A DNA stretch of 64,000 nucleotides, taken from a phage. Both the position numbers and the translations under genes were made by a program. The stretch lies in the sequence record PZ154896.1. The stretch is one strand, 5' to 3'. Shown here in pieces: positions 3,025 to 56,446 of the stretch. The stretch's first letter is position 1. Each line of letters starts with the position of its first letter. The notes beneath the pieces were generated by a model that saw only the letters and a program-made list of their open reading frames with translations, ran no database searches and was not told where the DNA came from.

Positions 3025-3288
3025 TCATATCTCAACTTCCGCGAGTTCCATATATCCTTTGTTGATAACCTCTTTAAGGTCTTTAGAAAGAATAACACTA
3101 AAATGGTCGTTCATATGTCCATTAACCAGACGAGTTATTTCGGCTTCAGATGACATATAAGGCACGTCTGAGTCCCAATGAGATAGACCCAAATGGGTAT
3201 AAATCATCCCTTCGTCATCTGCAGTGTTGTACATTGAAACAAATTCGCCTGTTACTTTATGTTTTGCGTAGAAAAATTTAAATTTCAT
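3025..3288 (-). CDS. Hypothetical protein (87 aa)
   Basis: ORF track; promoter cassette at 3315-3344. Confidence 0.55.
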   Translation of the reverse strand: MKFKFFYAKHKVTGEFVSMYNTADDEGMIYTHLGLSHWDSDVPYMSSEAEITRLVNGHMNDHFSVILSKDLKEVINKGYMELAEVEI

Positions 3289-3314
3289 GATGTTATCCTC
3301 TTTTAGATAGGACT

Positions 3315-3344
3315 ACTATATCATAGTCCTACTTAGTTGTAAAC
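3315..3344 (-). promoter_or_regulatory. Early promoter cassette (GTTTAC, 18 nt, TGaTATAGT; hairpin aggact/agtcct)
   Basis: Sequence pattern on minus strand. Confidence 0.5.
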
Positions 3345-3356
3345 ACTTTTATGAAA

Positions 3357-3833
3357 TTAAAGTTGAAGATACCACCCGTTGTAGTTGCTCTTGCGGACGA
3401 TTTTCTTTAGGTCTTCATGGTCTCCCACGAACTTTATAGAATAAGAGAAGACGTCAGGTGAGGTTTCTTTGACATCTAATATAATAATGCAATCTGCGAC
3501 TCGATGGTTCAAGAAGGGCCCTATGTTGATTCCGTTGCCACCTGGATAATCACCACTGTATCCTGTGGTAACAGAAATCCATTTAGAATCTATCTGGTGT
3601 GTCTTGACTTCTACACGAATTCCACAATACTTGGGGTGGGCTAACACGTCCCATGCATACGTGTACGGGTCTTCTACGTCTTCAATACCTTTATTAACAT
3701 ATCCGTCTAGCCAATTTGCTACTACATACTCTGCAAAGACCGCAACCTTACAACGTCGAACTACATCTTCTTTGTTTTGGTCAGGATTTTGGCTCAGGGA
3801 ATACCGAGCAGTGTCAGCAATCTTCACCTTCAT
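3357..3833 (-). CDS. Hypothetical protein (denB/ndd region); start uncertain, ORF open to 3977
   Basis: ORF track 206 aa overlapping upstream gene; first ATG after upstream stop gives ~158 aa. Confidence 0.45.
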   Translation of the reverse strand: MKVKIADTARYSLSQNPDQNKEDVVRRCKVAVFAEYVVANWLDGYVNKGIEDVEDPYTYAWDVLAHPKYCGIRVEVKTHQIDSKWISVTTGYSGDYPGGNGINIGPFLNHRVADCIIILDVKETSPDVFSYSIKFVGDHEDLKKIVRKSNYNGWYLQL

Positions 3834-3849
3834 TTCACTAGTCAAAAAC

Positions 3850-4137
3850 TCATTCGACAGGATAAATGTCGGAAGATTCTTCAGTCTCAACAGTCCCAAG
3901 TTCGTCTTTACCATAGATACCTCTGATGTGTAGTTCGCCAAAATAAATGCGGTCACCTTCTTCAAGATATTCTGCATCTACAGGCGGAATTTCAATAACA
4001 ACTTCGTCGCATTCTAACCACCCGTAGTGTGCATCGCCAGGATGTTTTACCAATTTAGCGCAATAAACTGATTTACACTTATGATGACCACGAAGATTAG
4101 CAATTTTGGATTCTGATACGTCAAATGGATGAATCAT
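3850..4137 (-). CDS. Hypothetical Cys/His-rich protein (95 aa)
   Basis: ORF track (start trimmed to MIHPFDV with AGGGG RBS); motif HHKCKSVYCAKLVKHPGDAHYGWLEC. Confidence 0.5.
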   Translation of the reverse strand: MIHPFDVSESKIANLRGHHKCKSVYCAKLVKHPGDAHYGWLECDEVVIEIPPVDAEYLEEGDRIYFGELHIRGIYGKDELGTVETEESSDIYPVE

Positions 4138-4149
4138 AATTACCCCTAA

Positions 4150-4174
4150 AGAAAAAAAGGGGACCAAAGTCCCC
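4150..4174 (-). terminator. Rho-independent terminator after rIIB
   Basis: ggggac-caaa-gtcccc stem with 7-nt A-run on plus strand (U-run on minus transcript). Confidence 0.55.
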
Positions 4175-4179
4175 AATTA

Positions 4180-5127
4180 TTATTCTACAAATAATTCAGT
4201 AACGTCTGAAATTACTTCATAACGACAAGTACGCATCTTAGCATCACCATAGTCAACTGGGATAGATACAACATCACGTGGATGAACTTTAACCTTAACA
4301 ACTTTATCTGAGCTAGAACCAAAGTAACGAATATACGATTTAGCGCAAACATGTAGACCACGGGAGCAGGTTTGTGTATCATCATCGTTAACACGAGTAC
4401 GAGGCATTGAAACAACTTTACCAGGCGAGTTATCAAATGTGCCGCTATAGCAATCTAAATAGTCCTTACGAACTACTTTCCATGCGTAGAAATGTCCATC
4501 TTCAGTGATTTCAATATCGTTTGCAACCAAGAAGTCGAATAAACGTTGTACAGCTTTTTCGCTTGGGTTTTCTAACAGGTTTTCAAGGAACGGCAGATAG
4601 AATTTAAAGTCTTCGCCTTTTTCCATAGAATCAATAATACGATTAACCAGGCCAGAACGAATCTCTATACCTTGATAAAATAAACTACCACCTTCAATAA
4701 CAACATTACCGTCAACAAACTTACTAATAGCTTTCTTGATGTTAATAAGTTCGACAGCTTTACTAAGGTTTCCTGCGACCAGATTAGCTTTAATTTCTTC
4801 AAAATTTGCATGACTTGATGGAGTCGCATTGTATGCTACGCGTCCTTCAATAATTGAAATAAATTTAGATGACGCGTTCCATACGATTTCAGGACGATGT
4901 CCGCCGATAATAGGTTCATCATTTTCTGGAACTTCTTCGATTACATAAGAGGCATCGTTTGCTTCAGGGACAACGCCTTCTGCTTTAAAATTCTTAACAA
5001 TCTTACGAAGAGTATCTGTTGAAATGTCGAAGTAATCGGCAATTTCTTTACGAGTCCATTTGCCTGATTCAACCAGGCCGTAAGCTTCTAACTGTTCTTC
5101 TTGGGACAAGCATTTAATATTGTACAT
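4180..5127 (-). CDS. rIIB: rIIB
   Basis: 315 aa; MYNIKCLSQEEQLEAYGLVESGKWTRKEIADYF... resembles T4 rIIB; adjacent to rIIA. Confidence 0.85.
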   Translation of the reverse strand: MYNIKCLSQEEQLEAYGLVESGKWTRKEIADYFDISTDTLRKIVKNFKAEGVVPEANDASYVIEEVPENDEPIIGGHRPEIVWNASSKFISIIEGRVAYNATPSSHANFEEIKANLVAGNLSKAVELINIKKAISKFVDGNVVIEGGSLFYQGIEIRSGLVNRIIDSMEKGEDFKFYLPFLENLLENPSEKAVQRLFDFLVANDIEITEDGHFYAWKVVRKDYLDCYSGTFDNSPGKVVSMPRTRVNDDDTQTCSRGLHVCAKSYIRYFGSSSDKVVKVKVHPRDVVSIPVDYGDAKMRTCRYEVISDVTELFVE

Positions 5128-5136
5128 AATGTTTCC

Positions 5137-7350
5137 TTATTTGGCCGCTTCCACGGCCTTCATGAATTTAACGATTTGAGCGACCTGTTCTTTGGAAAGA
5201 GTACCACGTCGTCCCATGTATTCTGACACAATATGATAATTGGTTTCGAATTCAATAACCATTTTATCATCATTATCGTAAGCATTATCTTTAAGCTTAT
5301 CGAAAATTTTAGCACACAATTCTAACTTCCTGTTCAGGTCTCTGTTATCAGCACCTGCGAATCGATTCCATCCCCAACGATTATTTACTGTTGAAAGTTT
5401 TGCAAAGTCTTTACTGATTTCTTTGTTCTTAGAGCTAAAATACTTACTAAGGAAGTTAAGCTCTTCATTACGAGTAATATGATTCAAATAAGGCTGGGCT
5501 CTACGACTTGGTGATACATACTCATCATAATCCACTTTATCAATTAGCATAATATAGTCATTAATTGATTTTTCAAACAAACATTCTACTTCACCAAGTT
5601 TACGAACTTTCTTAGCAATCTGTGGACGGACTACAGTGAACTCTTTAATACCTGACAAATCAGCAATACGAGTCAAGAAACTAGAATCATAGTTCAACCA
5701 ACCTTTATTTGCGTCAAGACATTCAGCGTTAAAACGATTACGAATTACAACATAACCTTGGATTTCATCAGCTTTACCGGCCGGAATAAAGAGATCTTCT
5801 GATACCCAAACATCGTTTTCATTCTTAAAGAATCGATGAGCACTTGGCGATTTAGGACGAGGCTCATTAGTCCGTTTCCTGACTTCAATCCATGGCTTAA
5901 CGATTTGTAAAAGCTCTGAAGTCTTGTACATGTTAATGTTGTCGCCATCAAAGATAACTTTAAGGCGTTCCAGAAGTTTCATTGCATCTTCGTCTGTAGG
6001 GTCAACGAATAGTACGCTTTTACCAAAACCGCGTGGAACTTTACCGGTTAATTTAACCTCGTCTTTAGACATTTCAATTGAATTAAGAGCTCGCATTAAT
6101 GGAACGCGTCCCTTAACGTCGTCAATAACAATTTCAACATTTTTAATGTTAATGCCAATCAGACTGTTAATTGAAATGGTTGCCGTTGAGCTACCGCTTT
6201 CACGAATACGACGAAGACGAGGGGATTCAACGATATCGTATACGACACCAAGATTACACCACTCAGGCCCCATTTTAAAACGTTTGTACAACTCGGAATA
6301 AGTTAGTTGTTCTTTAGAGTATTTCAGTGATTCAATATTAGACCCAGCCTTTTCCATGTATTTACGAGCGGTATAGCCAAGAGAATCAATTTCACGGAAC
6401 ACATGACGTGGGTATTTACAATCAATCCATTTCTTAGAATCTTCAGCGAACAATTTAGCATCGATTTCTGCAACGCGTTTATGGATATTTGCTACTGTAC
6501 GTTTATCAAATGACAATGCTTCACGAGACGGGGCTACATCTAGTTCACCCATAGGGAATTTAATATAAGCTGTAGTGCATCGCGTCATCATCCATGTTTG
6601 TTCTTTAATAACACTTCCGATTGGATATACAATACCACCATAAACAGCCATGATATTACCACGTTCACCCCATGGAGCTTCCTTGGCCAAATATACATCA
6701 TCGAATTCCGGGAAGTATTTGATATCTTTAACACCACGAACTTCTGCAATATCGCCGAGAGGACGCATAACATAAGCAATTTCGGATGCGAACTTTTCAA
6801 AATCTTCTGGGTTAACAGGCACAACTACTTCAACGCCGGTCCGGTCATCAGGACCCATCTTATCTACGAAGGTTGGCTTAATTTGTGGGCCTGTGTCATC
6901 TTGGTAGATTACGTAACCACGAACTTCACCATTGTGATAAGAAGTAAGGTTAAACGTATCAGTATATGCTAATGGAGCTTTAGAGCCGAGCCCGAATCCA
7001 CCAATGAAATCGTTACTCGATGTTTTAGTTGAAGCAAAATATGAGTTATAGATTCCTGGCTCTTCGTCATTACCTCGAATGGTGAAATCACTCATACCAG
7101 GACCAAAGTCTCGAACTACAAAACGTGGGTCTAAACGACCTGGAGCCTGAACAATAAACTTATCAGTGCAACCATTAAGAATTTGGCCATCGATACAGTT
7201 TGTGATTAATTCACGTACACAAGCCAATTCTTTGTTTGTATAAAGGTCATTAGACAAAATCTTATAAACTTTGCTATTGCCTTGAATAGTAAATGCCGTG
7301 CTCTTACCGCCTGAACCAATAATCGTTTCTTTAGCCGTTTCAATAATCAT
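5137..7350 (-). CDS. rIIA: rIIA (N-terminal GHKL-type ATPase fold)
   Basis: 737 aa; size and position match T4 rIIA; NCIDGQ and DFGPGM ATPase-like motifs. Confidence 0.85.
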   Translation of the reverse strand: MIIETAKETIIGSGGKSTAFTIQGNSKVYKILSNDLYTNKELACVRELITNCIDGQILNGCTDKFIVQAPGRLDPRFVVRDFGPGMSDFTIRGNDEEPGIYNSYFASTKTSSNDFIGGFGLGSKAPLAYTDTFNLTSYHNGEVRGYVIYQDDTGPQIKPTFVDKMGPDDRTGVEVVVPVNPEDFEKFASEIAYVMRPLGDIAEVRGVKDIKYFPEFDDVYLAKEAPWGERGNIMAVYGGIVYPIGSVIKEQTWMMTRCTTAYIKFPMGELDVAPSREALSFDKRTVANIHKRVAEIDAKLFAEDSKKWIDCKYPRHVFREIDSLGYTARKYMEKAGSNIESLKYSKEQLTYSELYKRFKMGPEWCNLGVVYDIVESPRLRRIRESGSSTATISINSLIGINIKNVEIVIDDVKGRVPLMRALNSIEMSKDEVKLTGKVPRGFGKSVLFVDPTDEDAMKLLERLKVIFDGDNINMYKTSELLQIVKPWIEVRKRTNEPRPKSPSAHRFFKNENDVWVSEDLFIPAGKADEIQGYVVIRNRFNAECLDANKGWLNYDSSFLTRIADLSGIKEFTVVRPQIAKKVRKLGEVECLFEKSINDYIMLIDKVDYDEYVSPSRRAQPYLNHITRNEELNFLSKYFSSKNKEISKDFAKLSTVNNRWGWNRFAGADNRDLNRKLELCAKIFDKLKDNAYDNDDKMVIEFETNYHIVSEYMGRRGTLSKEQVAQIVKFMKAVEAAK

Positions 7351-7362
7351 ATTTTTCTCTCA

Positions 7363-7563
7363 TCACAAGTTACGTTTAAAAATTTCTGCCACTTCAAGAA
7401 GTTCTTCTTTAGTAGCTGTATCGGTTTGTATTTTATATCGAATTTCTTTAAAGCGTTCTTTAAAAGACTCTGCCGACTCGATATCAAAAAATCTTTGGAT
7501 AAGCCGGAATTCCCGGAGCACAGCTTTATCAAAAAGTTCCAAGTCCACGTTATATGTTCTCAT
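7363..7563 (-). CDS. Hypothetical protein (rIIA.1 position)
   Basis: ORF track 66 aa immediately upstream of rIIA. Confidence 0.5.
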   Translation of the reverse strand: MRTYNVDLELFDKAVLREFRLIQRFFDIESAESFKERFKEIRYKIQTDTATKEELLEVAEIFKRNL

Positions 7564-7588
7564 AATATTCTCTTCAGTAGATTCCTAG

Positions 7589-7639
7589 GGCACTATTACT
7601 AAAGACCATATAATCTATCATCTTATGTGTAATAGTGCC
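7589..7639. repeat. 11-bp inverted repeat (ggcactattac / gtaatagtgcc) with ~29-nt loop
   Basis: Seen directly between the candidate transferase gene and the rIIA.1-like gene. Confidence 0.5.
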
Positions 7640-7655
7640 TCAGGCTATTCAGGAT

Positions 7656-10663: not shown

Positions 10664-10680
10664 AAAAGGGCCGAAGCCCT
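10660..10680 (-). terminator. Rho-independent terminator (gggc-cgaa-gccc plus T-run)
   Basis: Seen in sequence downstream of the 141-aa gene. Confidence 0.5.
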
Positions 10681-11105
10681 TATTTAAATTTAATTTTCTG
10701 AAGTGCATCAATTGCAGCCAAACGCCCTTGTTCACTTTTAACTGTAATGACCACATCACCTGATACGATCACCGAACCATCAACAAATTCTACAGAGCCT
10801 TTTTTGAAATCGACAGATGTATCTGGTTCCGGAACTTCTTCAAAGAATTTAAATTCTGCACCATAAAGCAGAATATCACCTTGCATACTATGAATAGTTC
10901 GGCCATAATCACCTACGGCTTCTACAGCAATCACCGAAACGCCGTAACCAATCATCTCTTCCACAATAAAATCTTTGGACAATAAAGTAGTATGCAGATT
11001 AGTATTAAGACGTTTACCAGTCGTATTAAGAATTCTCAAGAAATTATCTTCCTGACCTTTGATAATACGATATTTCTTACCAACTTCAAAACCTTTAAAA
11101 GCCAT
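10680..11105 (-). CDS. Hypothetical protein (141 aa; goF/comC-alpha position)
   Basis: ORF track; naming positional only. Confidence 0.5.
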   Translation of the reverse strand: MAFKGFEVGKKYRIIKGQEDNFLRILNTTGKRLNTNLHTTLLSKDFIVEEMIGYGVSVIAVEAVGDYGRTIHSMQGDILLYGAEFKFFEEVPEPDTSVDFKKGSVEFVDGSVIVSGDVVITVKSEQGRLAAIDALQKIKFK

Positions 11106-11289: not shown

Positions 11290-11700
11290 TTATTCCTTAA
11301 AATGTGCTTTCAACATTTGATACAAAGACCATGCCTGGTCGTTATTTTCGATAGTAATCGTCATCACCGGAAATTCAGACAATTCGTCAAGATCATCAGA
11401 ATCTTGCTCTTCGGACGCTAGATATGGATTTTCAACTTCGTCAAAGAACTCTGCTTCATTCGTGGAGAGCCAGATAAAGTTTTCATCAAGGATATCACCG
11501 CCTGTTGCGTATCCAACCGTGCCAGTAGATGTCACAATTTTAGTAGGACGACCAAGATGGTCAACATCTAATACTTTAAATGGTTCCATGCCAAGCCGTC
11601 GTGCATAAATCCCATTATCAGTGTGGTCTTTAATAAACTCTTCTTGGGCACGTTTATCTATAAATTGGTACCATGAGTTAACGCGGAATTTATTAGCCAT
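11290..11700 (-). CDS. Hypothetical acidic protein (~136 aa)
   Basis: ORF track; start placed at MANKF where ATG overlaps upstream stop (TAATG). Confidence 0.5.
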
Positions 11701-11927
11701 TAGTAAGTTTCCTTCCAATAAGTTGTACCGTTTTCAGTGATTTCACGGAAGATACCATAGATAGGCATTTCATCGCCTAGTTTTTCGTAAACGTAAACCA
11801 CTTCGGTGTAGCATAAAAATTCGGTCCAGTTTTTCTGTACAACAACTAAATCAGGATTAAACAGAACATCTTCAAACTCATCGATGTTTGAATCAGTAGT
11901 TACGTTTTTAATGATTTGACGTTTCAT
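11700..11927 (-). CDS. Hypothetical protein (~75 aa)
   Basis: ORF track trimmed to MKRQIIKN start with AGGAG RBS. Confidence 0.5.
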
Positions 11928-11955: not shown

Positions 11956-11985
11956 ATAGTATCATAGACCATAGTTGTTGTACAT
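11956..11985 (-). promoter_or_regulatory. Early promoter cassette (ATGTAC, 18 nt, TGaTACTAT; hairpin ggtctat/atagacc)
   Basis: Sequence pattern; conserved RBS tatcaaaacaagaggagaa follows. Confidence 0.5.
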
Positions 11986-12509
11986 CATTTTAGCAAAATA
12001 AAATCAACTTGTTCTGCCAATGAACGTCTAAACATTAATTGACAACTTCCGAGGATGAAATCAGGTGCTTCATAGACCGCGATGTAGTATCCTTTAGCTT
12101 TCAAGAGTTCAACATCCACCTGGTCGTCAAACCAAGCGTAAACCGCGTCAACACTTTCAAATCCAAAATAGAACCCTTGGGCCCAATCTTCGCTCAATTC
12201 AAATGTGTGATCAATTCTATAGTATCTTAAGATATTTTGTTCAAGGAGTTTATCTTCATTTACTGTAGGACGATTAGGGACATTATAGTTGTCGCCGTGA
12301 TGGTAGAAGTTACCTGAGAGTATTCCATGCTTATCAAGGAACTCCCATGTTTCTTCAGAGTTGTCGGTGCCTGACCAACCGTATGGTGAGCGAGGTTCTT
12401 TATTCCAAGAGGTTTCCCAAATTCTGACGGCTTTACCGTCTTCGATAGCAATTCCTGGTAATGATTCACGTTGAGTACAAAAACTACGTTCTACGCGGTA
12501 AACTAACAT
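11985..12509 (-). CDS. Hypothetical protein (~174 aa)
   Basis: ORF track trimmed to MLVYRVER start with GAGGAG RBS. Confidence 0.55.
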   Translation of the reverse strand: MLVYRVERSFCTQRESLPGIAIEDGKAVRIWETSWNKEPRSPYGWSGTDNSEETWEFLDKHGILSGNFYHHGDNYNVPNRPTVNEDKLLEQNILRYYRIDHTFELSEDWAQGFYFGFESVDAVYAWFDDQVDVELLKAKGYYIAVYEAPDFILGSCQLMFRRSLAEQVDFILLK

Positions 12510-12535
12510 ATTATTCTCCTCTGGTTGGTATGGAT

Positions 12536-12564
12536 ATAATATCAAAACCAGAGGAGAAGTAAAC
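12536..12564 (-). promoter_or_regulatory. Early promoter cassette (GTTTAC, 17 nt, TGaTATTAT) inside 12-bp inverted repeat tctcctctggtt/aaccagaggaga
   Basis: Seen in sequence. Confidence 0.5.
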
Positions 12565-12568
12565 AACT

Positions 12569-12988
12569 TTATGCAAAAGATGCTGGACAATATTTTTTGA
12601 TTTGGAACTCAGGAACTACCATGAACTGTCCAGCGAAAACGATGTTATAAAGCTTAACACCATCTTCTACCCATTGGTCCGAAATAAAACCAGCAACTTG
12701 ATTCGTTGTCCATGGAGACCCGTCAGTTGCAGAAGCAATAGTAAATTCATGGTCTTTTACAACTAAAACAGACCTGCATAGTTTCCATTTGAACGCTTTT
12801 TCTTCTGGTTCAATGAATTGGCTTTTAACATAACCAATGTTACCATCGGCGTCACGAACTTTAACTTGGTTACGTCCAAAAACCGGATCACTCACATAAA
12901 GAACTTCAACCAACTTCCCGGCAACTTTAGAGCGAGAAGCAACAGATACATATACGTAATCACCTGTAGAGAGATTTACAATATTCAT
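12569..12988 (-). CDS. Paralog family member A (139 aa), conserved C-terminal FISDQWVEDG domain
   Basis: ORF track; shares N-terminal SRSKxAGxLVEV and C-terminal motif with next gene. Confidence 0.6.
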   Translation of the reverse strand: MNIVNLSTGDYVYVSVASRSKVAGKLVEVLYVSDPVFGRNQVKVRDADGNIGYVKSQFIEPEEKAFKWKLCRSVLVVKDHEFTIASATDGSPWTTNQVAGFISDQWVEDGVKLYNIVFAGQFMVVPEFQIKKYCPASFA

Positions 12989-12997
12989 AATAATTCC

Positions 12998-13495
12998 TTA
13001 AGCTTTAAGAGGAGACACATAGCGAGTGATTTCAGATTCTTTAACAACTCGGAAGTCACCTAAGAATACGATATTGTATAACTTTTCGCCATCTTCAACC
13101 CATTGGTCACTAATGAAGCCACACATGATATCAGTTTTGCTTGGATAACCGTATTCGTCGATGTAATCAAATTCTTTATCGGTTATAAATTCAACACCTT
13201 TACACAAGGCCCATTTGAACTGTACATTAGGCTCAACGATATCGCTTGAAGCAAAGTGTGCAGGTGCAACTTCTTCGCTTGAAGCAAATTGGACTCGTAT
13301 ATGTTTTTCCAGGAATTTAGGACTTACGTAAGCATACTGGGCATCTTGTCCGCCAAAACTGGGCATGATTCGAACTTTAACTTCTTTAACACGTCCCATG
13401 CCGTTAGTACGAAGCCCTGCTACTTCAACCAGACGACCTGCAGCTTTAGAACGAGAAGCAGGAGATACACGAAGGATTTCACCAATAGTAATCAT
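12998..13495 (-). CDS. Paralog family member B (~165 aa)
   Basis: ORF track trimmed to MITIGEIL start; motifs SRSKAAGRLVEV and FISDQWVEDGEKLYNIVF. Confidence 0.6.
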   Translation of the reverse strand: MITIGEILRVSPASRSKAAGRLVEVAGLRTNGMGRVKEVKVRIMPSFGGQDAQYAYVSPKFLEKHIRVQFASSEEVAPAHFASSDIVEPNVQFKWALCKGVEFITDKEFDYIDEYGYPSKTDIMCGFISDQWVEDGEKLYNIVFLGDFRVVKESEITRYVSPLKA

Positions 13496-13525
13496 ATTTT
13501 TTCTCTCTTTGTTTAAGTTGAATTC

Positions 13526-13555
13526 ATTATACTCCATCCATCCTTGGATGTACAA
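13526..13555 (-). promoter_or_regulatory. Early promoter cassette (TTGTAC, 18 nt, TATAAT; core attatactccatccatccttggatgtaca)
   Basis: Sequence pattern. Confidence 0.5.
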
Positions 13556-13557
13556 CA

Positions 13558-14052
13558 TTAATTTAGAATATTAACTACTGCACTACGTGGAACCACACTA
13601 AAATCACCGGCATGAACAACGTTCAGAAGTTCAACCCCATCTTCAATCCACTGGTCAGTTACCCAGCCACTTACCGGTCCAGCGAATGGTCGTCGAATTG
13701 AAACAGCTTTACACAACAAATCAGTAGGCTCAATAGGCTTAATCAGAGTACCGTACATACAAGCGATATCCATATCAAAGTGGAGACCATCTTTAACAGG
13801 TGCTTCTTCAATCAACAGTTCAAAGTCGGTGCTTGGAATGGCGGTAGTAGAAATTATACCGTATGAATTTTTAATTTCTAAGAATAACCAAGGGCCTTCA
13901 GCTTGTTTGATAAAGTTAACAATAGTGAAACTATTACCTTGAGTGGCACCTAAAATTTCACAAAACTTTTCGTAAGCTCGCACTGAAGCACCGTACCAGT
14001 TGATTTGTTTTTCGTCTTTCAGGATGTAAGTAGCCGTAGTATTGATATTCAT
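13558..14052 (-). CDS. Paralog family member C (164 aa), C-terminal WVTDQWIEDG domain
   Basis: ORF track; C-terminal domain homologous to A and B. Confidence 0.6.
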   Translation of the reverse strand: MNINTTATYILKDEKQINWYGASVRAYEKFCEILGATQGNSFTIVNFIKQAEGPWLFLEIKNSYGIISTTAIPSTDFELLIEEAPVKDGLHFDMDIACMYGTLIKPIEPTDLLCKAVSIRRPFAGPVSGWVTDQWIEDGVELLNVVHAGDFSVVPRSAVVNILN

Positions 14053-14083: not shown

Positions 14084-14113
14084 ATTATACTCCAACCGTC
14101 CTTGGTTGTAAAC
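14084..14113 (-). promoter_or_regulatory. Early promoter cassette (GTTTAC, 18 nt, TATAAT; core attatactccaaccgtccttggttgtaaac)
   Basis: Sequence pattern. Confidence 0.5.
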
Positions 14114-14118
14114 TGGTT

Positions 14119-14796
14119 TTATCGCTGTTTTACACTTAACGGGTCAGGATTCTCAGGGACATCTTCAAGGCCAAGCGCATAACGCTGAGCATATTTTAAC
14201 ATCAAAATATCTTTAGCACAATCATGAATACTATCATGGGCAACGAATCCTTTTAGCGTACCCATCGGTAATGGACACATACTTAATCCTCGTGTCAACG
14301 AGTAAGCTTCGATTGCAGTACGAATATCGCGTTGAGCCCAGAATTTAACCGGTTCTAATTTATCAGTATCAATATCTGGTTCAAGAACACCTTCATCACG
14401 ATAGAGGTCACGAATCAAATCGACCAAGATCGGGAAGTCAAAGCTCATACCACGGCACCACATCTGTGATTTCCATTGGTCAACTTTATTAGCTCGGCAA
14501 TAATCTAAAAAGATTTTAATGCCTTCAAGCGTAGTGACATCGTCTTCAGACGGAGCCAAGTTTTTACGTGCTTCAGCCGATTGTTCTTTCCACCATTTCA
14601 TAGTGGATTTAGCGAAAACTCGCTTCCCTTTCTGAGAAGCTAAATTAAATTTAATTCGCTTACCTCGTTGAACAAGTTCTTCAAATGATTCAACAACTTC
14701 AGGGTCGGAATTATATGCAATAACCGCAAGGTCAATAACAGCCGCTTTTGATGTATTGCCGAATGTTTCAAAATCTATAATAACATCAGTGCTCAT
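14119..14796 (-). CDS. dexA: Exonuclease A (DexA, 3'-5' exonuclease)
   Basis: 225 aa; MSTDVIIDFETFGN... DnaQ-like; position immediately downstream of dda as in T4. Confidence 0.75.
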   Translation of the reverse strand: MSTDVIIDFETFGNTSKAAVIDLAVIAYNSDPEVVESFEELVQRGKRIKFNLASQKGKRVFAKSTMKWWKEQSAEARKNLAPSEDDVTTLEGIKIFLDYCRANKVDQWKSQMWCRGMSFDFPILVDLIRDLYRDEGVLEPDIDTDKLEPVKFWAQRDIRTAIEAYSLTRGLSMCPLPMGTLKGFVAHDSIHDCAKDILMLKYAQRYALGLEDVPENPDPLSVKQR

Positions 14797-14805
14797 AATT
14801 TTCTC

Positions 14806-16119
14806 TCAAATAAAATGGACGTCAAAACGACCACGAGTTGTGCCGACATACAATAACTGTTTAGCTAATTCTGAATCGGCATAATGGATGCACGGTGTAT
14901 AAACAAAGGCCGTGTCAACAGACATACCCTGGGCCTTATGGAAGGTTGATACTGGTAGTGCCTTCACCTTAGTGAACATACGTTTAGCATCCCAGAATTC
15001 GCTCCATGGAGCTTTACCACCTTTATTCCAAAATTTGTATGTTTCTGCGGTCTTAGCCAAAAACAAATTGAATTTATAAAGCTCTTCTTCAGAAGAAATA
15101 ACCTTTATATCTTCGCGGATGTATTCTTCATCATCCCCATATGTTTCTACTGTAAGATTCCAGTATCGTATCATATATTCGCCTGAAACACCACGTGCTT
15201 TAACGAATGTAGACGTTTCTACAGCATCTCGAATACGAACGAATTGACCGTTATTGAAAAGCATTTCGGTAATATTTTTACCATCTAGCTTATATGTCTT
15301 AGTAAACGGCTCTTGTAGAACAATGACTTCGTCTTTAATAAATGGTTTTTCTGTTTCAAGAAGTTTTCGGCGAATAATTGAATTTAACTTGTCCACCGAC
15401 TTATTTGTGAATGCCATCATTCGATTTTCGAAAAGGTCTTCAGGAGTTTTAACGACGTTAAAATAGTTCATCATATACGATTTAAGGTCTGTATATCCAT
15501 GAACGCCGTGCCCATCAACTACTTTATCGTAGATCCATTTGCCGTTACGAATATCAGTCGCAACATCAATAATTGGTGCATTGCTACGTTTAACTTCTGT
15601 AAGGTTGCATTGCACGAAGTCTTTGTGAGTGAAGAAAGGACTTAGATACGCAGTTGATTCGCCTGGGTCTACCGGACGAATCTGGCATCGGTCGCCGATT
15701 CCAATTACTGTACACCATTTAGGGATACTAGCTAACATTATTTTAAACAGAGAACGGTCGCACATTGACGCTTCATCAAATAACAGTACACGGCACAAGG
15801 CTAAGTCGGGAACCTTTTTCTGTTCAAACAATACGTTTTCTTCGTATGTAGTTGGGTTGATTTTAAGAATGCTATGAATAGTCGATGCTTCTTGACCCGC
15901 AAGTTTACTTAGAACCTTTTTAGCAGCATGTGTAGGGGCTGCTAAAATAATACCTGATTCTCCAGAAGAAATAAGGGCTTCAACGATGAATCTAGTAAGG
16001 GTTGTTTTACCTGTACCAGCAGGCCCATTAATAGTTACGTGATGTTTCTTTTCTTTAATAGCGGTCATAACAACGTTGAAGGCGTTTTTCTGGCCTTCAG
16101 TCAAATCATCAAATGTCAT
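14806..16119 (-). CDS. dda: Dda DNA helicase (SF1)
   Basis: 437 aa; MTFDDLTEGQKNAFNVVMTAIKEKKHHVTINGPAGTGKTTL... matches T4 Dda. Confidence 0.95.
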   Translation of the reverse strand: MTFDDLTEGQKNAFNVVMTAIKEKKHHVTINGPAGTGKTTLTRFIVEALISSGESGIILAAPTHAAKKVLSKLAGQEASTIHSILKINPTTYEENVLFEQKKVPDLALCRVLLFDEASMCDRSLFKIMLASIPKWCTVIGIGDRCQIRPVDPGESTAYLSPFFTHKDFVQCNLTEVKRSNAPIIDVATDIRNGKWIYDKVVDGHGVHGYTDLKSYMMNYFNVVKTPEDLFENRMMAFTNKSVDKLNSIIRRKLLETEKPFIKDEVIVLQEPFTKTYKLDGKNITEMLFNNGQFVRIRDAVETSTFVKARGVSGEYMIRYWNLTVETYGDDEEYIREDIKVISSEEELYKFNLFLAKTAETYKFWNKGGKAPWSEFWDAKRMFTKVKALPVSTFHKAQGMSVDTAFVYTPCIHYADSELAKQLLYVGTTRGRFDVHFI

Positions 16120-53145: not shown

Positions 53146-53450
53146 TATAATGTTCTCTCAAATTTGTGGAAGCATTTACGGCATTTCAATTTCAAGTTAT
53201 CAGTGGTCCAGTTAACCAGTTGGACTTGGATAGTTCCACATTCCGGACATGGATGTTTTGCTGCCGATTTGGCAGCATTTTCACGTCGTTCAACCATTTT
53301 CATGATTTCGTTCCATGCCGGAGTAACGAACTCTTCTTCACCGTGGATTTTATCTCGCTGAACAAATTCAATCTTTGAACTATCGTCAATAAACTTAACC
53401 AAGCTGTGATTAGTGCTCATGTCAATATCCTCTAAAAGACGTAGTTTCAT
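53145..53450 (-). CDS. Zinc-ribbon protein (101 aa)
   Basis: C-terminal CPECG...CRKCFHKF. Confidence 0.5.
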   Translation of the reverse strand: MKLRLLEDIDMSTNHSLVKFIDDSSKIEFVQRDKIHGEEEFVTPAWNEIMKMVERRENAAKSAAKHPCPECGTIQVQLVNWTTDNLKLKCRKCFHKFERTL

Positions 53451-54400
53451 TATAAAACCTCAATGGCATTTCGTAAACCATCAGCTTTTGCATTCAGAGC
53501 TTTTAATGATTTAGTTTGTTCTGCAATCTGGACTTCGACTTCTTTCAGACGAGATTTGAGATATTCGCGTTCTTCTCTTAAGTTATCAACTTTTTCTACT
53601 TTAGGTTCTTTAATAGGCTTAGGCTTATACGTATTAGGGTTCTTCAGCTTAATTTGAATACGAGAACTGTATAACATTGAACCGTTATCTTCGGATTCGT
53701 CGAACGTTTCAACAACATCCATAGTCTCTAACAATGTAATAAGTTTATAAGACAACGAACGAACGGTTTTGTTATGCTTATTAATTTCTTCAGCTTTCAT
53801 GGTACCGAGATTACGTGAGTAGTAATAAGGAACCTGGATATCAATTGACAATGATGCGTTACCATTACCAGTTGGTTTGAATACTGCAGTAACCCAATCT
53901 TTAACATGAACTTTATTTGTACGACCATCACCGCCTGTGAATAATTTACGTGAATGTTTAAAAAGCATATTCACTTGATTATTAAATTCACAAGCAAATT
54001 TATCAGCAAATTTAGTTTCAGGAATGGTAGATAACCAATCAGCTAAATGAGTCTTTTTAACATCGTTAATAATAGTAAATTCAACCAAATCAGTTTTAGA
54101 TGTCACAGATTTAATAAAGCTCGGCTTCATAAAGTTTTTAATGTTATCGCGAGCTACAGTAGAAGATAATAAACGAGAACGTTTGAACCATTGAAGCAGT
54201 GTCCCTAATGAATGAGAATACGCATTCTGAGTATCTTTACAGATATGATTTTCTTGACCTGTGTATGTACCAAAATCTCGAAGAATACCACTTACTACAA
54301 CTCGGTGTGGAACATCAAATCCTAATGAACCAGAAGCACGTTGGGCATGAACGTTAGCGATAAGACCTGCAAAATAATCAATGTAATGTGAACGTGTCAT
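53450..54400 (-). CDS. Hypothetical protein (316 aa) with C-terminal coiled coil
   Basis: ORF track; heptad-like C-terminus; cassette promoter upstream. Confidence 0.55.
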   Translation of the reverse strand: MTRSHYIDYFAGLIANVHAQRASGSLGFDVPHRVVVSGILRDFGTYTGQENHICKDTQNAYSHSLGTLLQWFKRSRLLSSTVARDNIKNFMKPSFIKSVTSKTDLVEFTIINDVKKTHLADWLSTIPETKFADKFACEFNNQVNMLFKHSRKLFTGGDGRTNKVHVKDWVTAVFKPTGNGNASLSIDIQVPYYYSRNLGTMKAEEINKHNKTVRSLSYKLITLLETMDVVETFDESEDNGSMLYSSRIQIKLKNPNTYKPKPIKEPKVEKVDNLREEREYLKSRLKEVEVQIAEQTKSLKALNAKADGLRNAIEVL

Positions 54401-54428: not shown

Positions 54429-54458
54429 ATTATACTCCAACCATCCTTGGTTGTAAAC
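54429..54458 (-). promoter_or_regulatory. Early promoter cassette (GTTTAC, 18 nt, TATAAT; core attatactccaaccatccttggttgtaaac)
   Basis: Same cassette as at ~14084 and ~55422. Confidence 0.5.
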
Positions 54459-54462
54459 TGAT

Positions 54463-55395
54463 TTATGATTTTAATGCATTCATTGCGTTAAAAAGTTTAG
54501 AGTACTGCAACTGGAGCTTAGTAACTACTTGTTGAGCATCACGAAGCTTAGCTTGTGCTTTGTCAAGTTCAACAGACAGTTGGTCCACAGTGGCTTTGAT
54601 TTGATTATAATAGTAATCTTCGGCAGGAAGAAGTCCGTTAGAGATTTCCAGTTTAGTCGACGGTGTGCCGTTAAACATAACAGGTTGTGCTGAAGCTGAA
54701 TTAATCTTACCGATAGTCGGGGCGACAATAATTGACGCTTCGAACGTTGCATTTTCCTTTTTAAGATTTTTATAATATTCAGAGTCTTTGTGCCACCATG
54801 GCGCAGGAACCTTTTTACCAATAGATACACGAGCCTGGATAGCGATATGGCCCTTATTCTTGATAATGTCTATAATATTAAGCTCACGAGAATAAATTGC
54901 TTTAATCTGGTGAATATTATCACCTAACACTTCCAACGCTTGGTGGAATACACGAGCAACGTTATCATTCTTAGGTTTATACGTAAGAGTGAACTCGTTC
55001 TCACTGATAACCATGATTTCTAACTTATCGTAAGTATATTTCAAATGTTTCATGTTAATTGCTTGAGGACGAATACGAGAAGCAATGGCCATCAGATTGT
55101 TAAGGTTATTTCTGAACTGTTTAGCAAAATATTGTCCATAACCGCCGATACAAAAATTACGAAGTTTCTGTTTGGCTAATAAACGGCTGAACTCACCATT
55201 TTTAATGAACTCTTTAACGGGTGTGTTAGTAACGCATTCAAATTGAGTAAACTTACGAGAATTAATCCCATAATATGAACAGATTTCCTCAATCTCTTCA
55301 GGAGTCTTTACAGGCATACGGATAGGATTAGGACCTGGGGTATATGCGTTCGAGGTAAATTCTTTGATAAGTTCTCTACGTGTAATAGAAGCCAT
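54463..55395 (-). CDS. Hypothetical protein (310 aa) with C-terminal coiled coil
   Basis: ORF track. Confidence 0.55.
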   Translation of the reverse strand: MASITRRELIKEFTSNAYTPGPNPIRMPVKTPEEIEEICSYYGINSRKFTQFECVTNTPVKEFIKNGEFSRLLAKQKLRNFCIGGYGQYFAKQFRNNLNNLMAIASRIRPQAINMKHLKYTYDKLEIMVISENEFTLTYKPKNDNVARVFHQALEVLGDNIHQIKAIYSRELNIIDIIKNKGHIAIQARVSIGKKVPAPWWHKDSEYYKNLKKENATFEASIIVAPTIGKINSASAQPVMFNGTPSTKLEISNGLLPAEDYYYNQIKATVDQLSVELDKAQAKLRDAQQVVTKLQLQYSKLFNAMNALKS

Positions 55396-55421: not shown

Positions 55422-55451
55422 ATTATACTCCAACCATCCTTGGTTGTACAT
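55422..55451 (-). promoter_or_regulatory. Early promoter cassette (ATGTAC, 18 nt, TATAAT)
   Basis: Sequence pattern. Confidence 0.5.
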
Positions 55452-56446
55452 CATTCCTTAAGAAGTTTTACTACTTGAATAAGATTAGCTCGTTCTGTTT
55501 TATTTTTACTGTTTAAGCCTGCTAATCGTGAGATTTCATCATCAGTCTGTTGAATAGTTACATTAAGTTCGTTAATCAAAGCTTCAAAGTATTTGATTTG
55601 CTCAGCATGTTTTGATTCAAATTTCTGAACCGGAATAACGTCTTGGTTTAGTTCATCAATAAGGTCTTTAAGAGCATCTTCTTGGTTGATATCATATTCA
55701 ACTTCTTTTATTTCTTCAACGAGCTCGTCTTTATATCTAACGTCTTTTAGTCCTGGTGCTGGTCCTGAAATCTCTTCTTTAAGAGTACAAACATATCCAA
55801 TACGGTATCCAATGCCGTCTCGCTTGATATCAACTTCGTCAATAAATCCACAATGTTTAAGACCAGAGCCGATTAGGTCAAAATATCCTTGACGTCGTCC
55901 TTCAAACGTTACACGAACTACTAAGACAGTTTTACCTGCAACCTTTTGAAGCTCACATTTATAAAAGTCTGTTGAACCTGAATAACGTGGATGAGTTTTA
56001 AAGTTCATCTGACGATCTAGGCCCATTTGTAAACGTGCTGATACAGCCAGAAAACGTGTTTGGTTCTCGTTAAGATGAGCAACAATCCATTTCAAAGGCA
56101 TTTTACACTGTTCACGACCGAACAAATCAGTACGTCCTAGATTACGCAGGATGTTGTTAGAGTTAATCATCGACAGAACGTTAAGTTTATTCAGCGCGCT
56201 GAAGATTCCATCGGCCATTGATTTTCCGTAACCTTTACACGCTTTAATAAGCGCTCGCGGTAGATTAGTATAGATTTCAGACGGCATATGAAAATCAAAT
56301 TTACTAGTCAGTAATTGATGAACTTGGATAGCAATTTGCTCATAATTAAGTGCTCTGCGATCATTATGGTCTTTAAACCACACTTTAATCTGTGAAGCAC
56401 ATAAACCGTTAATTTCATGTTTTACCGCATCAGATGTAATGCTCAT
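55451..56446 (-). CDS. Hypothetical protein (331 aa) with C-terminal coiled coil
   Basis: ORF track. Confidence 0.55.
   Translation of the reverse strand: MSITSDAVKHEINGLCASQIKVWFKDHNDRRALNYEQIAIQVHQLLTSKFDFHMPSEIYTNLPRALIKACKGYGKSMADGIFSALNKLNVLSMINSNNILRNLGRTDLFGREQCKMPLKWIVAHLNENQTRFLAVSARLQMGLDRQMNFKTHPRYSGSTDFYKCELQKVAGKTVLVVRVTFEGRRQGYFDLIGSGLKHCGFIDEVDIKRDGIGYRIGYVCTLKEEISGPAPGLKDVRYKDELVEEIKEVEYDINQEDALKDLIDELNQDVIPVQKFESKHAEQIKYFEALINELNVTIQQTDDEISRLAGLNSKNKTERANLIQVVKLLKE

What the first reader, a model, noticed from the sequence alone, without database searches (positions are those of the whole stretch)
12569..14052. Tandem trio of paralogous genes sharing a C-terminal W-[IV]-[ST]-DQW-[IV]-EDG domain
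Three adjacent genes (139, about 165 and 164 aa) share a conserved C-terminal domain. Two also share an N-terminal SRSKxAG[RK]LVEV segment, while the third has a different N-terminus. Each has its own promoter cassette or tight coupling. A family with variable N-terminus and conserved C-terminus next to dexA suggests diversifying host-interaction or anti-defence proteins.
Basis: seen in the sequence. Interest (0 to 1): 0.45.

Follow-up and report, generated by a model that had tools for sequence, protein, structure and literature searches.

The report
T4-like phage motB.1–motB–motB gene cluster
The three neighbouring genes are the already described MotB/MotB.1 family of early T4-like phage proteins, here with two motB copies plus motB.1 as reported for phage RB69; they are conserved and under purifying selection, so the finding is real but ordinary.

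Summary
Three adjacent minus-strand genes (139, 165 and 164 aa) share a C-terminal domain. Two also share an N-terminal SRSKxAG[KR]LVEV segment.

All three score above the Pfam cut-off for PF17613 (motB). The window is a Mosigvirus-type T4-like phage, about 97% identical to phages ST0 and DCP548.
- Gene B is the MotB orthologue (45% identical to T4 MotB).
- Gene A is a second motB copy.
- Gene C is the MotB.1 orthologue.

The shared C-terminus with differing N-termini, and RB69 carrying two motB plus one motB.1, were published in 2021 (PMC7827196).

- The shared domain models as an SH3/Tudor-like barrel. This is not the OB fold proposed in the literature.
- It is neutral to acidic, whereas the KOW N-domain is basic.
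- dN/dS is 0.04-0.31, and about 0 in the C-terminal domain of gene C. The genes are therefore conserved, not diversifying.
- The family is tiny: about 27 clusters among 1.84 billion representatives.

Most likely function, by homology: early proteins that coat DNA and remodel H-NS-bound chromatin. This is firm only for gene B.

Verdict: already known, low interest.

The parts
13558..14052 (-). Gene C: MotB.1 orthologue, 164 aa. LSm-like N-domain, disordered linker, MotB-family C-terminal domain.
   Evidence: PHROG 2333 E 2.4e-81 over the full length; PF17613 36.8 bits on residues 88-159. 39% identical to T4 MotB.1, E 3.7e-27. AF2 model pLDDT 79.9.
12998..13495 (-). Gene B: MotB orthologue, 165 aa. 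KOW N-domain, about 29-aa disordered linker, C-terminal domain.
   Evidence: PF17613 128.1 bits over the full length; PHROG 1671 E 3.1e-62. 45% identical to T4 MotB, E 6.5e-42. AF2 model pLDDT 77.9 with residues 66-89 disordered.
12569..12988 (-). Gene A: second, diverged motB copy, 139 aa. Same two domains, almost no linker.
   Evidence: PF17613 77.3 bits; PHROG 1671 E 9.9e-51. 41% identical to B and 38% to T4 MotB. Orthologues at 80% identity or more occur in 208 phage records, none at 60-80%.
13307..13495 (-). KOW/SH3-like N-domain of B (residues 1-63), carrying SRSKAAGRLVEV; net charge +5.
   Evidence: The Pfam KOW model PF00467 matches 3 of 18 family N-domains, best E 6.5e-6. HHpred KOW assignment for T4 MotB in PMC7827196.
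13220..13306 (-). Length-variable, acidic, disordered linker of B (residues 64-92), with the quasi-repeat FASSEEVAPAHFASSDIVEP.
   Evidence: pLDDT below 50 for residues 66-89. Orthologues of 151-191 aa differ mainly here. dN/dS is highest here, on small counts.
12803..12988 (-). KOW-type N-domain of A (residues 1-62), carrying SRSKVAGKLVEV; net charge 0.
13801..14052 (-). N-domain of C (residues 1-84): five strands plus a helix. It is the LSm-like fold type described for T4 MotB.1, GoF and Frd.2.
13735..13782 (-). Short linear motif HFDMDIACMYGTLIKP in the disordered linker of C (residues 91-106). The family consensus is roughly DG[YF]VxDxD[IV]xxMY.
   Evidence: Low pLDDT for residues 87-104. 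The motif recurs in linkers of distant KOW-type members and is absent from the 143-145-aa T4-type MotB.1.
12998..13219 (-). Shared C-terminal domain of B (FKW...LKA, residues 93-165, plus stop); net charge -5.
   Evidence: Strands 100-112, 118-134, 137-144 and 147-152, a short helical turn, then strand 156-160.
12569..12793 (-). Shared C-terminal domain of A (residues 66-139, plus stop).
13558..13728 (-). Shared C-terminal domain of C (PTDLL...NILN, residues 109-164, plus stop). It is the short MotB.1 type, lacking about 15 residues of the first hairpin.
   Evidence: dN is about 0 against dS 0.3-0.5 versus other Mosigviruses.
14084..14112 (-). Early-type promoter in front of C (TTTACA, 17 nt, TATAAT).
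   Evidence: 11 of 12 consensus matches. Part of the repeated 27-nt cassette.
13526..13554 (-). Early-type promoter in front of B (TGTACA, 17 nt, TATAAT). It overlaps the 3' end of C.
   Evidence: 10 of 12 consensus matches. Same cassette. It lies inside the spurious 186-aa extension of B.
12989..12997 (-). 9-nt B-A junction with the Shine-Dalgarno sequence AAGGA. A is co-transcribed with B and translationally coupled to it.
   Evidence: Sequence. The same 9-nt spacing is seen in RB3, RB69, HX01, APCEc01, SHSML-52-1 and moha.

Best explanation
This is the motB.1 - motB - second-motB block of the dispensable early region (between dexA and cef) of a Mosigvirus-type T4-like phage.

Each gene encodes a small all-beta protein with three parts: an N-terminal SH3-like barrel, a disordered acidic linker, and a shared C-terminal barrel that is the hallmark of Pfam PF17613. 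The N-barrel is KOW-type in B and A and LSm-like in C.

The genes are expressed immediately after infection from host-sigma-70-type early promoters. One promoter precedes C. One precedes the coupled B-A pair.

By homology with T4 MotB, gene B most likely makes a protein that:
- binds double-stranded DNA without sequence preference and spreads along it;
- sits on DNA together with host H-NS/StpA and changes the H-NS binding pattern;
- thereby loosens H-NS silencing and modestly raises phage yield.

My reading of the anatomy (inferred, not shown): the basic KOW N-domain is the DNA-contacting part. The invariant, neutral-to-acidic C-terminal barrel is a common docking or oligomerisation module. 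On this view A (N-domain with no net charge, no linker) and C (acidic, LSm-like N-domain) are variants that bring a different head to the same partner.

Shown here: gene identity, paralogy, architecture, promoter motifs, purifying selection, distribution. Taken from T4 experiments: DNA binding, H-NS/StpA co-purification, toxicity, two-fold burst effect. Inferred: the division of labour between domains, and any activity of A and C.
For: Identity:
- PF17613 scores above cut-off for all three genes; PHROG 1671 (A, B) and 2333 (C).
- B is 45% identical to T4 MotB, A 38%, and C is 39% identical to T4 MotB.1.
- The window is 95-97% identical to Mosigvirus genomes in which these genes are annotated MotB or transcriptional regulator.

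Architecture:
- AF2 models have pLDDT 78-80 with two confident beta domains and a disordered linker.
- The C-terminal domain shows the strand 4 - short helical turn - strand 5 signature of SH3-like barrels.

Charge:
- KOW N-domains of most canonical MotB orthologues carry +4 to +9 (+2 to +3 in three).
- Linkers carry 0 to -12.
- C-terminal domains carry -5 to +3.

Constraint:
- dN/dS is 0.04-0.31 overall.
- In the C-terminal domain of C there are 0 non-synonymous against 14-15 synonymous differences.
- Synonymous divergence between the paralogues inside the conserved motif is saturated.

Expression: early promoter cassettes and a 9-nt coupling.

Function of the T4 orthologue:
- Kd(app) 0.04-0.1 uM on unrelated dsDNAs, with full DNase I protection at about 1.5 MotB per bp.
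- H-NS/StpA co-purification, toxicity in E. coli, two-fold burst-size effect (PMC6070864, read).
- Altered H-NS footprint, and 75 host genes up-regulated, about one third of them in the H-NS regulon (PMC7827196).
Against: - Gene B is not basic overall (pI 5.8, net -2) and A is neutral (pI 6.6). T4 MotB has pI 9.2, the property that first suggested DNA binding. Transfer of tight non-specific DNA binding to these proteins is therefore not safe.
- No experiment assigns DNA binding to either domain. The literature proposed the C-terminal domain as a DNA-binding OB fold (PMC7827196).
- A T4 motB knock-down barely changes the phage transcriptome, and whether MotB touches H-NS directly or only through DNA is unresolved (PMC6070864).
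- Deleting T4 motB.1 gave no phenotype under laboratory conditions (PMC12152347).
Confidence: 0.7

Rival explanations
1. The literature's domain model: the shared C-terminal domain is a cold-shock-like OB fold that binds DNA. All three proteins would then be DNA-coating proteins that differ only in their accessory N-domains.
For: HHpred of T4 MotB matched residues 69-149 to the eIF5A C-terminal OB domain (PMC7827196). The C-terminal domain is the one module common to all members. The T4 MotB C-terminal domain is slightly basic, net +1.
Against: - The models show a strand 4 - short helical turn - strand 5 layout, typical of SH3 and not of OB.
- The domain is net -5 in B and -2 in C, and its invariant core D-Q-W-x-E-[DE]-G is acidic.
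- Gene C is acidic throughout (pI 4.65).
Confidence: 0.15
2. One reading: a rapidly diversifying set of anti-defence or host-range proteins, in which duplication and N-terminal swapping track variable host targets.
For: - Location in the dispensable, mosaic early region.
- Copy number varies: 1 in a Klebsiella Marfavirus, 2 in T4, 3 here.
- Domain shuffling: at least four N-terminal architectures on one C-terminal domain.
- A natural B/A recombinant exists (P0155).
- dN and dS are higher than in dexA and dda, indicating allele exchange.
Against: - dN/dS is well below 1 in every domain except a few linker comparisons based on fewer than 10 substitutions.
- Orthologues are 88-98% identical across the genus.
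- The A type forms one tight group in 208 records.
- No match in PADLOC or NCBIfam, though these libraries do not model anti-defence genes.
- No published defence phenotype was found.
Confidence: 0.1
3. RNA-directed regulators. KOW and LSm-like heads are classic RNA or ribosome/RNAP-binding modules, so the trio might act on transcripts, on elongating RNA polymerase or on translation, not on chromatin.
For: - KOW domains of NusG/Spt5 and ribosomal proteins appear among the fold hits.
- The MotB.1 N-domain shares the LSm-like fold with GoF, whose D25Y mutant raises gene 41 mRNA and protein (PMC12152347).
- The historical name is 'modifier of transcription'.
Against: - The nucleic acid co-purifying with T4 MotB was DNase-sensitive and RNase-resistant, and ssDNA was bound about 6-fold more weakly than dsDNA (PMC6070864).
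- MotB.1 had little effect in the gene 41 reporter assay.
- The T4 transcriptome is almost unchanged without motB.
Confidence: 0.1
4. Gene A is a decaying, functionless duplicate of motB.
For: It has lost the linker and the positive charge of the N-domain. It has no promoter of its own.
Against: - The reading frame is intact.
- dN/dS is 0.10-0.18 with dS up to 0.59.
- It is conserved in 208 records across two genera, always 9 nt after motB.
- All invariant residues of the C-terminal domain are kept.
Confidence: 0.03

Closest known systems
Bacteriophage T4 MotB (NP_049626; Pfam PF17613, PHROG 1671)
   Same: Gene B aligns over its full length at 45% identity, and A at 38%. Both have the same KOW N-domain with SRSKAAG[KR]LVEV, the same C-terminal domain, the same early-region location and an early promoter.
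   Different: T4 has one copy; this phage has two, 9 nt apart. T4 MotB is basic (pI 9.2), whereas B has pI 5.8 and A pI 6.6. The linker differs in length and sequence. The gene order differs: T4 runs dexA-motB.2-motB.1-motB-cef, and this phage runs dexA-motB.1-motB-motB'-motB.2-cef.
T4 MotB.1 (PHROG 2333; 'Category 2' of PMC7827196; LSm-like family of PMC12152347)
   Same: Gene C is 39% identical. It has the same N-domain and the same short-type C-terminal domain, and it lies directly upstream of motB.
   Different: Gene C (164 aa) carries a 20-residue linker insert with the FDMDIACMYGTLIKP motif, which the 143-aa T4-type protein lacks. The 119-aa T4 reference protein is cut short by a one-base insertion found only in NC_000866/AF158101.
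RB69 motB pair plus motB.1 (NP_861700, NP_861701, NP_861703)
   Same: Same genus, same order, same three genes and the same 9-nt spacing. [quoted passage not shown]
   Different: In the RB69 reference, motB.1 is broken by two single-T insertions. This leaves a 29-aa ORF, the paper's 'Category 3'. Gene C in the window is intact.
Anti-H-NS proteins T7 gp5.5 and T4 Arn
   Same: They have the same proposed outcome as MotB: relief or alteration of H-NS silencing by a small early phage protein (PMC7827196).
   Different: They are unrelated in sequence and fold. gp5.5 binds the H-NS oligomerisation domain and Arn is a DNA mimic, whereas MotB binds DNA itself. No direct MotB-H-NS contact has been shown.
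Eukaryotic 'royal family' barrels (Tudor, chromo, PWWP, BAH) and KOW domains
   Different: Sequence identity is only 6-22% and there is no profile-level similarity. No PDB sequence relative was found. An aromatic cage was not examined. This is a fold resemblance only, not membership.

Membership tests
MotB family (Pfam PF17613) | Score at or above the curated gathering cut-off of 25 bits | tested here: met
   A 77.3, B 128.1 and C 36.8 bits.
MotB proper (PHROG 1671; 'Category 1' of PMC7827196) | KOW-type N-domain plus C-terminal domain, alignable over the full length to T4 MotB | tested here: met
   Met for B (residues 1-163 on profile positions 2-160; 45% identity) and A (38% identity, E 3.9e-25). 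Not met for C, which matches only through the C-terminal domain.
MotB proper | Strongly basic protein (T4 MotB pI 9.23) | tested here: not met
   B has pI 5.77 and A pI 6.57. Only the N-domain of B is basic, at +5. This is a property of T4 MotB, not a formal criterion, but it matters when transferring function.
MotB proper | Non-specific dsDNA binding, H-NS/StpA co-purification, toxicity in E. coli | not testable with these tools
   Known only for T4 MotB (PMC6070864, PMC7827196).
MotB proper | Early gene in the dexA-cef interval of a T4-like genome, with a host-type early promoter | tested here: met
   Synteny is shown. Promoter consensus matches are; these are motifs, not transcription data.
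MotB.1 subfamily (PHROG 2333) | LSm-like N-domain joined to the short MotB.1-type C-terminal domain (PTDLLCKAV...GWVTDQWIEDGVELLNVVHAG) | tested here: met
   Gene C matches PHROG 2333 at E 2.4e-81 and is 39% identical to T4 MotB.1. The AF2 N-domain has five strands and a helix. Its C-terminal domain is 76-88% identical to other members.
OB-fold (cold-shock-like) DNA-binding domain, as proposed for the MotB C-terminus | Five-stranded barrel with OB topology and structural neighbours among OB proteins | tested here: not met
Tudor/'royal family' readers | Aromatic cage that binds methylated Lys/Arg | not tested
Known anti-phage defence or annotated bacterial families | Match to a PADLOC or NCBIfam model | tested here: not met
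   No hit at E of 0.1 or better.

The most novel reading that the evidence does not exclude
The invariant C-terminal barrel is not a DNA-binding OB fold. It is a Tudor/SH3-like docking module that targets one common partner, such as H-NS/StpA filaments or another nucleoid or replisome protein, or that mediates hetero-oligomerisation among the paralogues. The exchangeable heads (basic KOW, uncharged KOW, LSm-like, and the 180- and 250-aa forms in other phages) and the linker motif DG[YF]VxDxD[IV]xxMY would then deliver different activities to that partner. The trio would be a modular toolkit for remodelling host chromatin, possibly acting as counter-silencing or anti-defence factors in natural hosts.
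Probability: 0.15. Interest if true: 0.5.

Novelty: already known. Interest (0 to 1): 0.18.

Why it matters
The finding itself adds little. The family, its shared C-terminus with differing N-termini, and the two-motB-plus-motB.1 arrangement in this genus are all published, and the genes are routinely annotated.

Three by-products may help people working on MotB:
- The shared domain looks SH3/Tudor-like and acidic, which shifts the likely DNA-binding role to the KOW head.
- Mosigvirus MotB proteins are not basic, so T4 biochemistry may not transfer directly.
- The T4 reference MotB.1 (119 aa, 13.8 kDa) is truncated by a one-base difference that is absent from every re-sequenced T4. Constructs based on it lack half of the conserved domain.

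Tried and rejected
- Extra copies of the C-terminal domain in the window: none beyond the three (tblastn).
- Recent gene conversion between the paralogues: rejected. Synonymous sites inside the conserved motif differ and dS is saturated.
- The two barrels of MotB as an internal duplication: hhalign of N-domain against C-domain profiles gives 1.2% probability.
- Sequence relatives with solved structures: none at E below 0.1 for either the C-domain or the full-length profile.
- Remote homologues outside T4-like phages:
  - A profile search of 1.84 billion representatives gave 34 hits.
  - About 27 are real and all are small MotB-like proteins.
  - The long hits are Ig-repeat proteins matching GYQWQKNGV and were discarded.
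- The BFVD fold search returned mostly MotB-like proteins of T4-like phages, plus weak hits to unrelated phages.
- PADLOC and NCBIfam: no hits.
- The 186-aa reading of gene B (start at 13558): rejected.
  - Its extra 21 residues are the translation of the promoter cassette.
  - T4 and RB69 MotB start at MI[IT][NI]IGE.
- MotB.2 (11985-12509) as a fourth family member: rejected. It shows no similarity to the C-terminal domain (E 0.45); some records label it 'transcriptional regulator' without support.
- Plus-strand ORFs in the interval are 81 aa or shorter, lie antisense to the genes, and have no family match or other support.
Full report
**What is there.** All genes in this part of the window run on the minus strand. 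In the direction of transcription the order is:
- dda (14806-16119)
- dexA (14119-14796)
- gene C (13558-14052, 164 aa)
- gene B (12998-13495, 165 aa)
- gene A (12569-12988, 139 aa)
- a 174-aa gene (11985-12509)
- cef, goF, a 39.2-like zinc-ribbon gene, a second goF-like gene, and topoisomerase gene 39

The 3-kb stretch is 95-97% identical to Mosigvirus genomes such as ST0, DCP548, 308Ecol101PP, HX01 and APCEc01. The window therefore comes from a T4-like phage of the RB69 group.

- BLASTP gives A-B 41% identity (E 1.8e-28), A-C 62% over the core of the C-terminus (E 1.5e-10), and B-C E 4.6e-9.
- All three pass the curated Pfam cut-off for PF17613 'motB'.
- Ten columns are invariant across 24 family C-domains: L, V, G, D-Q-W, E, L, N, V.
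The residue before [IV]-[ST]-DQW is F in A and B, and W only in C.
- Only three copies of the domain exist in the 64 kb.
- The conserved peptide is encoded by different codons in the three genes, and synonymous divergence between the paralogues is saturated. The duplications are therefore old and the similarity is maintained by selection on the protein.
- The remark about promoters is also correct. C and B are each preceded by a strong early-type promoter (11/12 and 10/12 consensus matches).
- These two promoters are copies of one 27-nt cassette, which occurs four times in the window against none expected.
- A begins 9 nt after the stop of B, behind AAGGA, so it is expressed as the second gene of a B-A pair.

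**What the genes are.** Comparison with the annotated T4 region gives the assignments below.

| Window gene | T4 counterpart | Identity | E-value |
|---|---|---|---|
| B | MotB | 45%, end to end | 6.5e-42 |
| A | MotB (second, diverged copy) | 38% | 3.9e-25 |
| C | MotB.1 | 39% | 3.7e-27 |
| 174-aa gene | MotB.2 | 34% | 1e-15 |

MotB.2 is unrelated to the shared C-terminal domain.

- PHROG puts A and B in 1671 ('MotB-like transcriptional regulator') and C in 2333.
- The gene order differs from T4. T4 runs dexA-motB.2-motB.1-motB-cef. The window runs dexA-motB.1-motB-motB'-motB.2-cef.
- All seven other Mosigvirus loci fetched share the window's order: AV111, 308Ecol101PP, HX01, APCEc01, SHSML-52-1, moha and RB69.
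- The B-A pair, with its 9-nt spacing, also occurs in the Tequatrovirus RB3 downstream of a T4-type motB.2-motB.1. The pair therefore moves between genera as a unit.
- A-type genes at 80% identity or more are found in 208 phage records, with none at 60-80%. The C-domain as such is found in 906 records.

**What was already published.**
- Patterson-West et al. 2018 (PMC6070864) showed that T4 MotB is toxic in E. coli. It binds dsDNA of any sequence at 0.04-0.1 uM, modified or not, and spreads along it.
- The same paper showed that MotB co-purifies with H-NS and StpA and doubles burst size, while hardly affecting the phage transcriptome.
- The 2021 follow-up (PMC7827196) showed that MotB changes the H-NS footprint and up-regulates 75 host genes, a third of them in the H-NS regulon.
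- It predicted a KOW N-domain and an OB-fold C-domain by HHpred.
- It described four categories of homologues sharing the C-domain with different N-domains, and suggested motB and motB.1 arose by duplication.
- A 2025 paper (PMC12152347) assigned the MotB.1 N-domain to an LSm-like fold shared with GoF and Frd.2. It found no phenotype for a T4 motB.1 deletion.

- AF2 models built on family alignments are moderately confident: pLDDT 77.9 for B and 79.9 for C. Each shows two well-predicted beta domains and a linker below pLDDT 50.
- The two proteins share only the C-domain. That domain also shows the strand 4 - short helical turn - strand 5 layout characteristic of SH3-like barrels.
- I therefore read the shared domain as an SH3/Tudor-like barrel, not an OB fold.
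- This is an inference. The tool gives no residue ranges, and the N-domains are SH3-like too.
- The N- and C-domain profiles show no similarity to each other (hhalign probability 1.2%).
- The Pfam KOW model hits three of the more distant family N-domains, best E 6.5e-6.
- No family member or sequence relative has a solved structure.

**Charge and the likely division of labour.**
- T4 MotB is basic (pI 9.2, net +6). Gene B has pI 5.8, A has pI 6.6 and C has pI 4.65.
- Across 32 family members the KOW head of most canonical MotB orthologues is basic (+4 to +9; +2 to +3 in three). The linker ranges from 0 to -12, and the C-domain runs from -5 to +3.
- The consistently basic part is therefore the KOW head. 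It is the better candidate for the non-specific DNA contact.
- The invariant core of the C-domain (D-Q-W-x-E-[DE]-G) is acidic. That fits a protein-docking or oligomerisation surface better.
- Gene A has an uncharged head and no linker. Gene C is acidic throughout and has an LSm-like head.
- If A and C act on the same pathway, they probably do so through the shared C-domain and not by coating DNA.

**Selection.**
- Nei-Gojobori estimates against seven Mosigvirus relatives give whole-gene dN/dS of 0.10-0.18 (A), 0.19-0.31 (B) and 0.04-0.18 (C). The values for dexA and dda are 0-0.07.
- By domain, the C-domain of gene C has no non-synonymous change in four of the seven comparisons, against 14-15 synonymous changes in three of them.
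- The C-domains of A and B mostly lie at 0.03-0.24.
- Only the linker of B reaches values above 1, on fewer than ten substitutions.
- The genes evolve faster than the neighbouring replication genes and show signs of allele exchange, with higher and patchy dS. They are nevertheless under purifying selection.
- What diversity the family has comes from domain shuffling and from linker insertions and deletions, not from rapid point substitution.
- The MotB.1-type C-domain is 76-88% identical on proteins with an LSm-like head, a different 180-aa form, a 250-aa two-headed form, and a KOW head.
- One metagenomic protein (P0155) is a clean hybrid of the B head and the A tail. It is the expected product of unequal recombination between the tandem copies.

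**How narrow the family is.** A profile of the C-domain searched against 1.84 billion cluster representatives found 34 proteins at E of 0.001 or better. About 27 are real. The rest are Ig-repeat proteins matching a short stretch. All real hits are small MotB-like proteins, and most are KOW-linker-C-domain. The viral fold library likewise returns mostly MotB-like proteins of T4-like phages of Escherichia, Klebsiella, Yersinia, Serratia and Enterobacter, plus weak hits to unrelated phages.

**Verdict.** The genes belong to a named family whose paralogy and copy number in this very genus are in the literature. Novelty: already known. Interest is low, with minor value in the structural re-reading of the shared domain, the charge difference from T4 MotB, and the T4 and RB69 reference-sequence errors noted in passing.

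Noticed in passing
L001 (T4 NC_000866.4) 3642-4151, record 7141-7650; compare L012 (MT984581) 470-901: The T4 reference motB.1 carries one extra G (ATTGGAAGATGG instead of ATTGAAGATGG). This truncates the protein to 119 aa (13.8 kDa) in the middle of the conserved C-domain, and the rest of the domain is intact in the +1 frame. Only AF158101 and NC_000866 have the extra base. At least eleven other T4 records (e.g. T4T HM137666, KJ477684-6, MT984581) are one base shorter and MT984581, the record checked directly, encodes 143 aa (16.2 kDa). PMC12152347 quotes 13.8 kDa for MotB.1, so its plasmid constructs probably lack half the domain.
   Followed up: yes
L011 (RB69 NC_004928) 4877-5373: The RB69 reference motB.1 has two single-T insertions 55 nt apart in the C-domain. 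They split it into the annotated motB.1 and a 29-aa ORF. That ORF is the lone 'Category 3' peptide of PMC7827196. It is either a sequencing error or a laboratory-strain pseudogene.
   Followed up: partly
protein P0155 (metagenome, 173 aa): A natural hybrid with the head and linker of gene B type fused to the C-domain of gene A type. It looks like collapse of the tandem motB pair by recombination within the conserved FKW region.
   Followed up: partly
window 13735-13782 (-), and linkers of P0177, P0180, P0185, P0187, P0188, P0190, P0060: A conserved short motif, roughly DG[YF]VxDxD[IV]xxMY (HFDMDIACMYGTLIKP in gene C), sits in the otherwise disordered linker of many family members. It is missing from T4-type MotB.1 and from gene B. 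It is possibly a docking peptide; the partner is unknown.
   Followed up: partly
window 12514-12558 (-): A 13-bp hairpin (dG -20.6 kcal/mol, z -4.1) lies between gene A and motB.2. Its loop holds the -10 box of the motB.2 promoter, and its 3' arm holds the motB.2 Shine-Dalgarno sequence GAGGAG. Read-through transcripts from the B-A promoter would hide the ribosome site, whereas transcripts from the proximal promoter would not. The palindrome is exactly conserved in 5 of the 7 Mosigvirus loci fetched.
   Followed up: partly
window 10680-11105 (-) and 11290-11703 (-): There are two GoF-family genes (both PHROG 622: E 8e-22 and 1.4e-38) where T4 has goF and gene 39.1. The dexA-to-39 interval therefore holds several paralogue sets of small beta-barrel proteins.
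   Followed up: partly
window 54429-54455 and 55422-55448 (-); genes 53450-54400, 54463-55395, 55451-56446 (-): Two more exact copies of the 27-nt early promoter cassette precede adjacent 316-aa and 310-aa genes. A third, 331-aa gene lies upstream. All three belong to PHROGs of unknown function (1435, 2351, 2257) and have coiled-coil-like C-termini. This may be another tandem family.
   Followed up: partly
window 13496-13558 (-); L002 3599-4159; L004 4560-4628: Several public records annotate gene B as 186 aa (MLYIQGWMEYNEFNLNKERK...), or annotate a separate 22-aa 'modifier of transcription'. These extra residues are simply the translated promoter cassette. The real start is MITIGE.
   Followed up: yes
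window 12998-13495 and 12569-12988 (-): Mosigvirus MotB proteins are not basic (pI 5.8 and 6.6; orthologues mostly pI 5-8.5), unlike T4 MotB (pI 9.2). Tight non-specific DNA binding may not be a general property of the family.
   Followed up: partly
L010 (Klebsiella phage PWKp16, Marfavirus) 3142-3585: This phage has a single 147-aa MotB-like gene between dexA and cef, with no motB.1 or motB.2. This may be the minimal, possibly ancestral, state of the locus.
   Followed up: no
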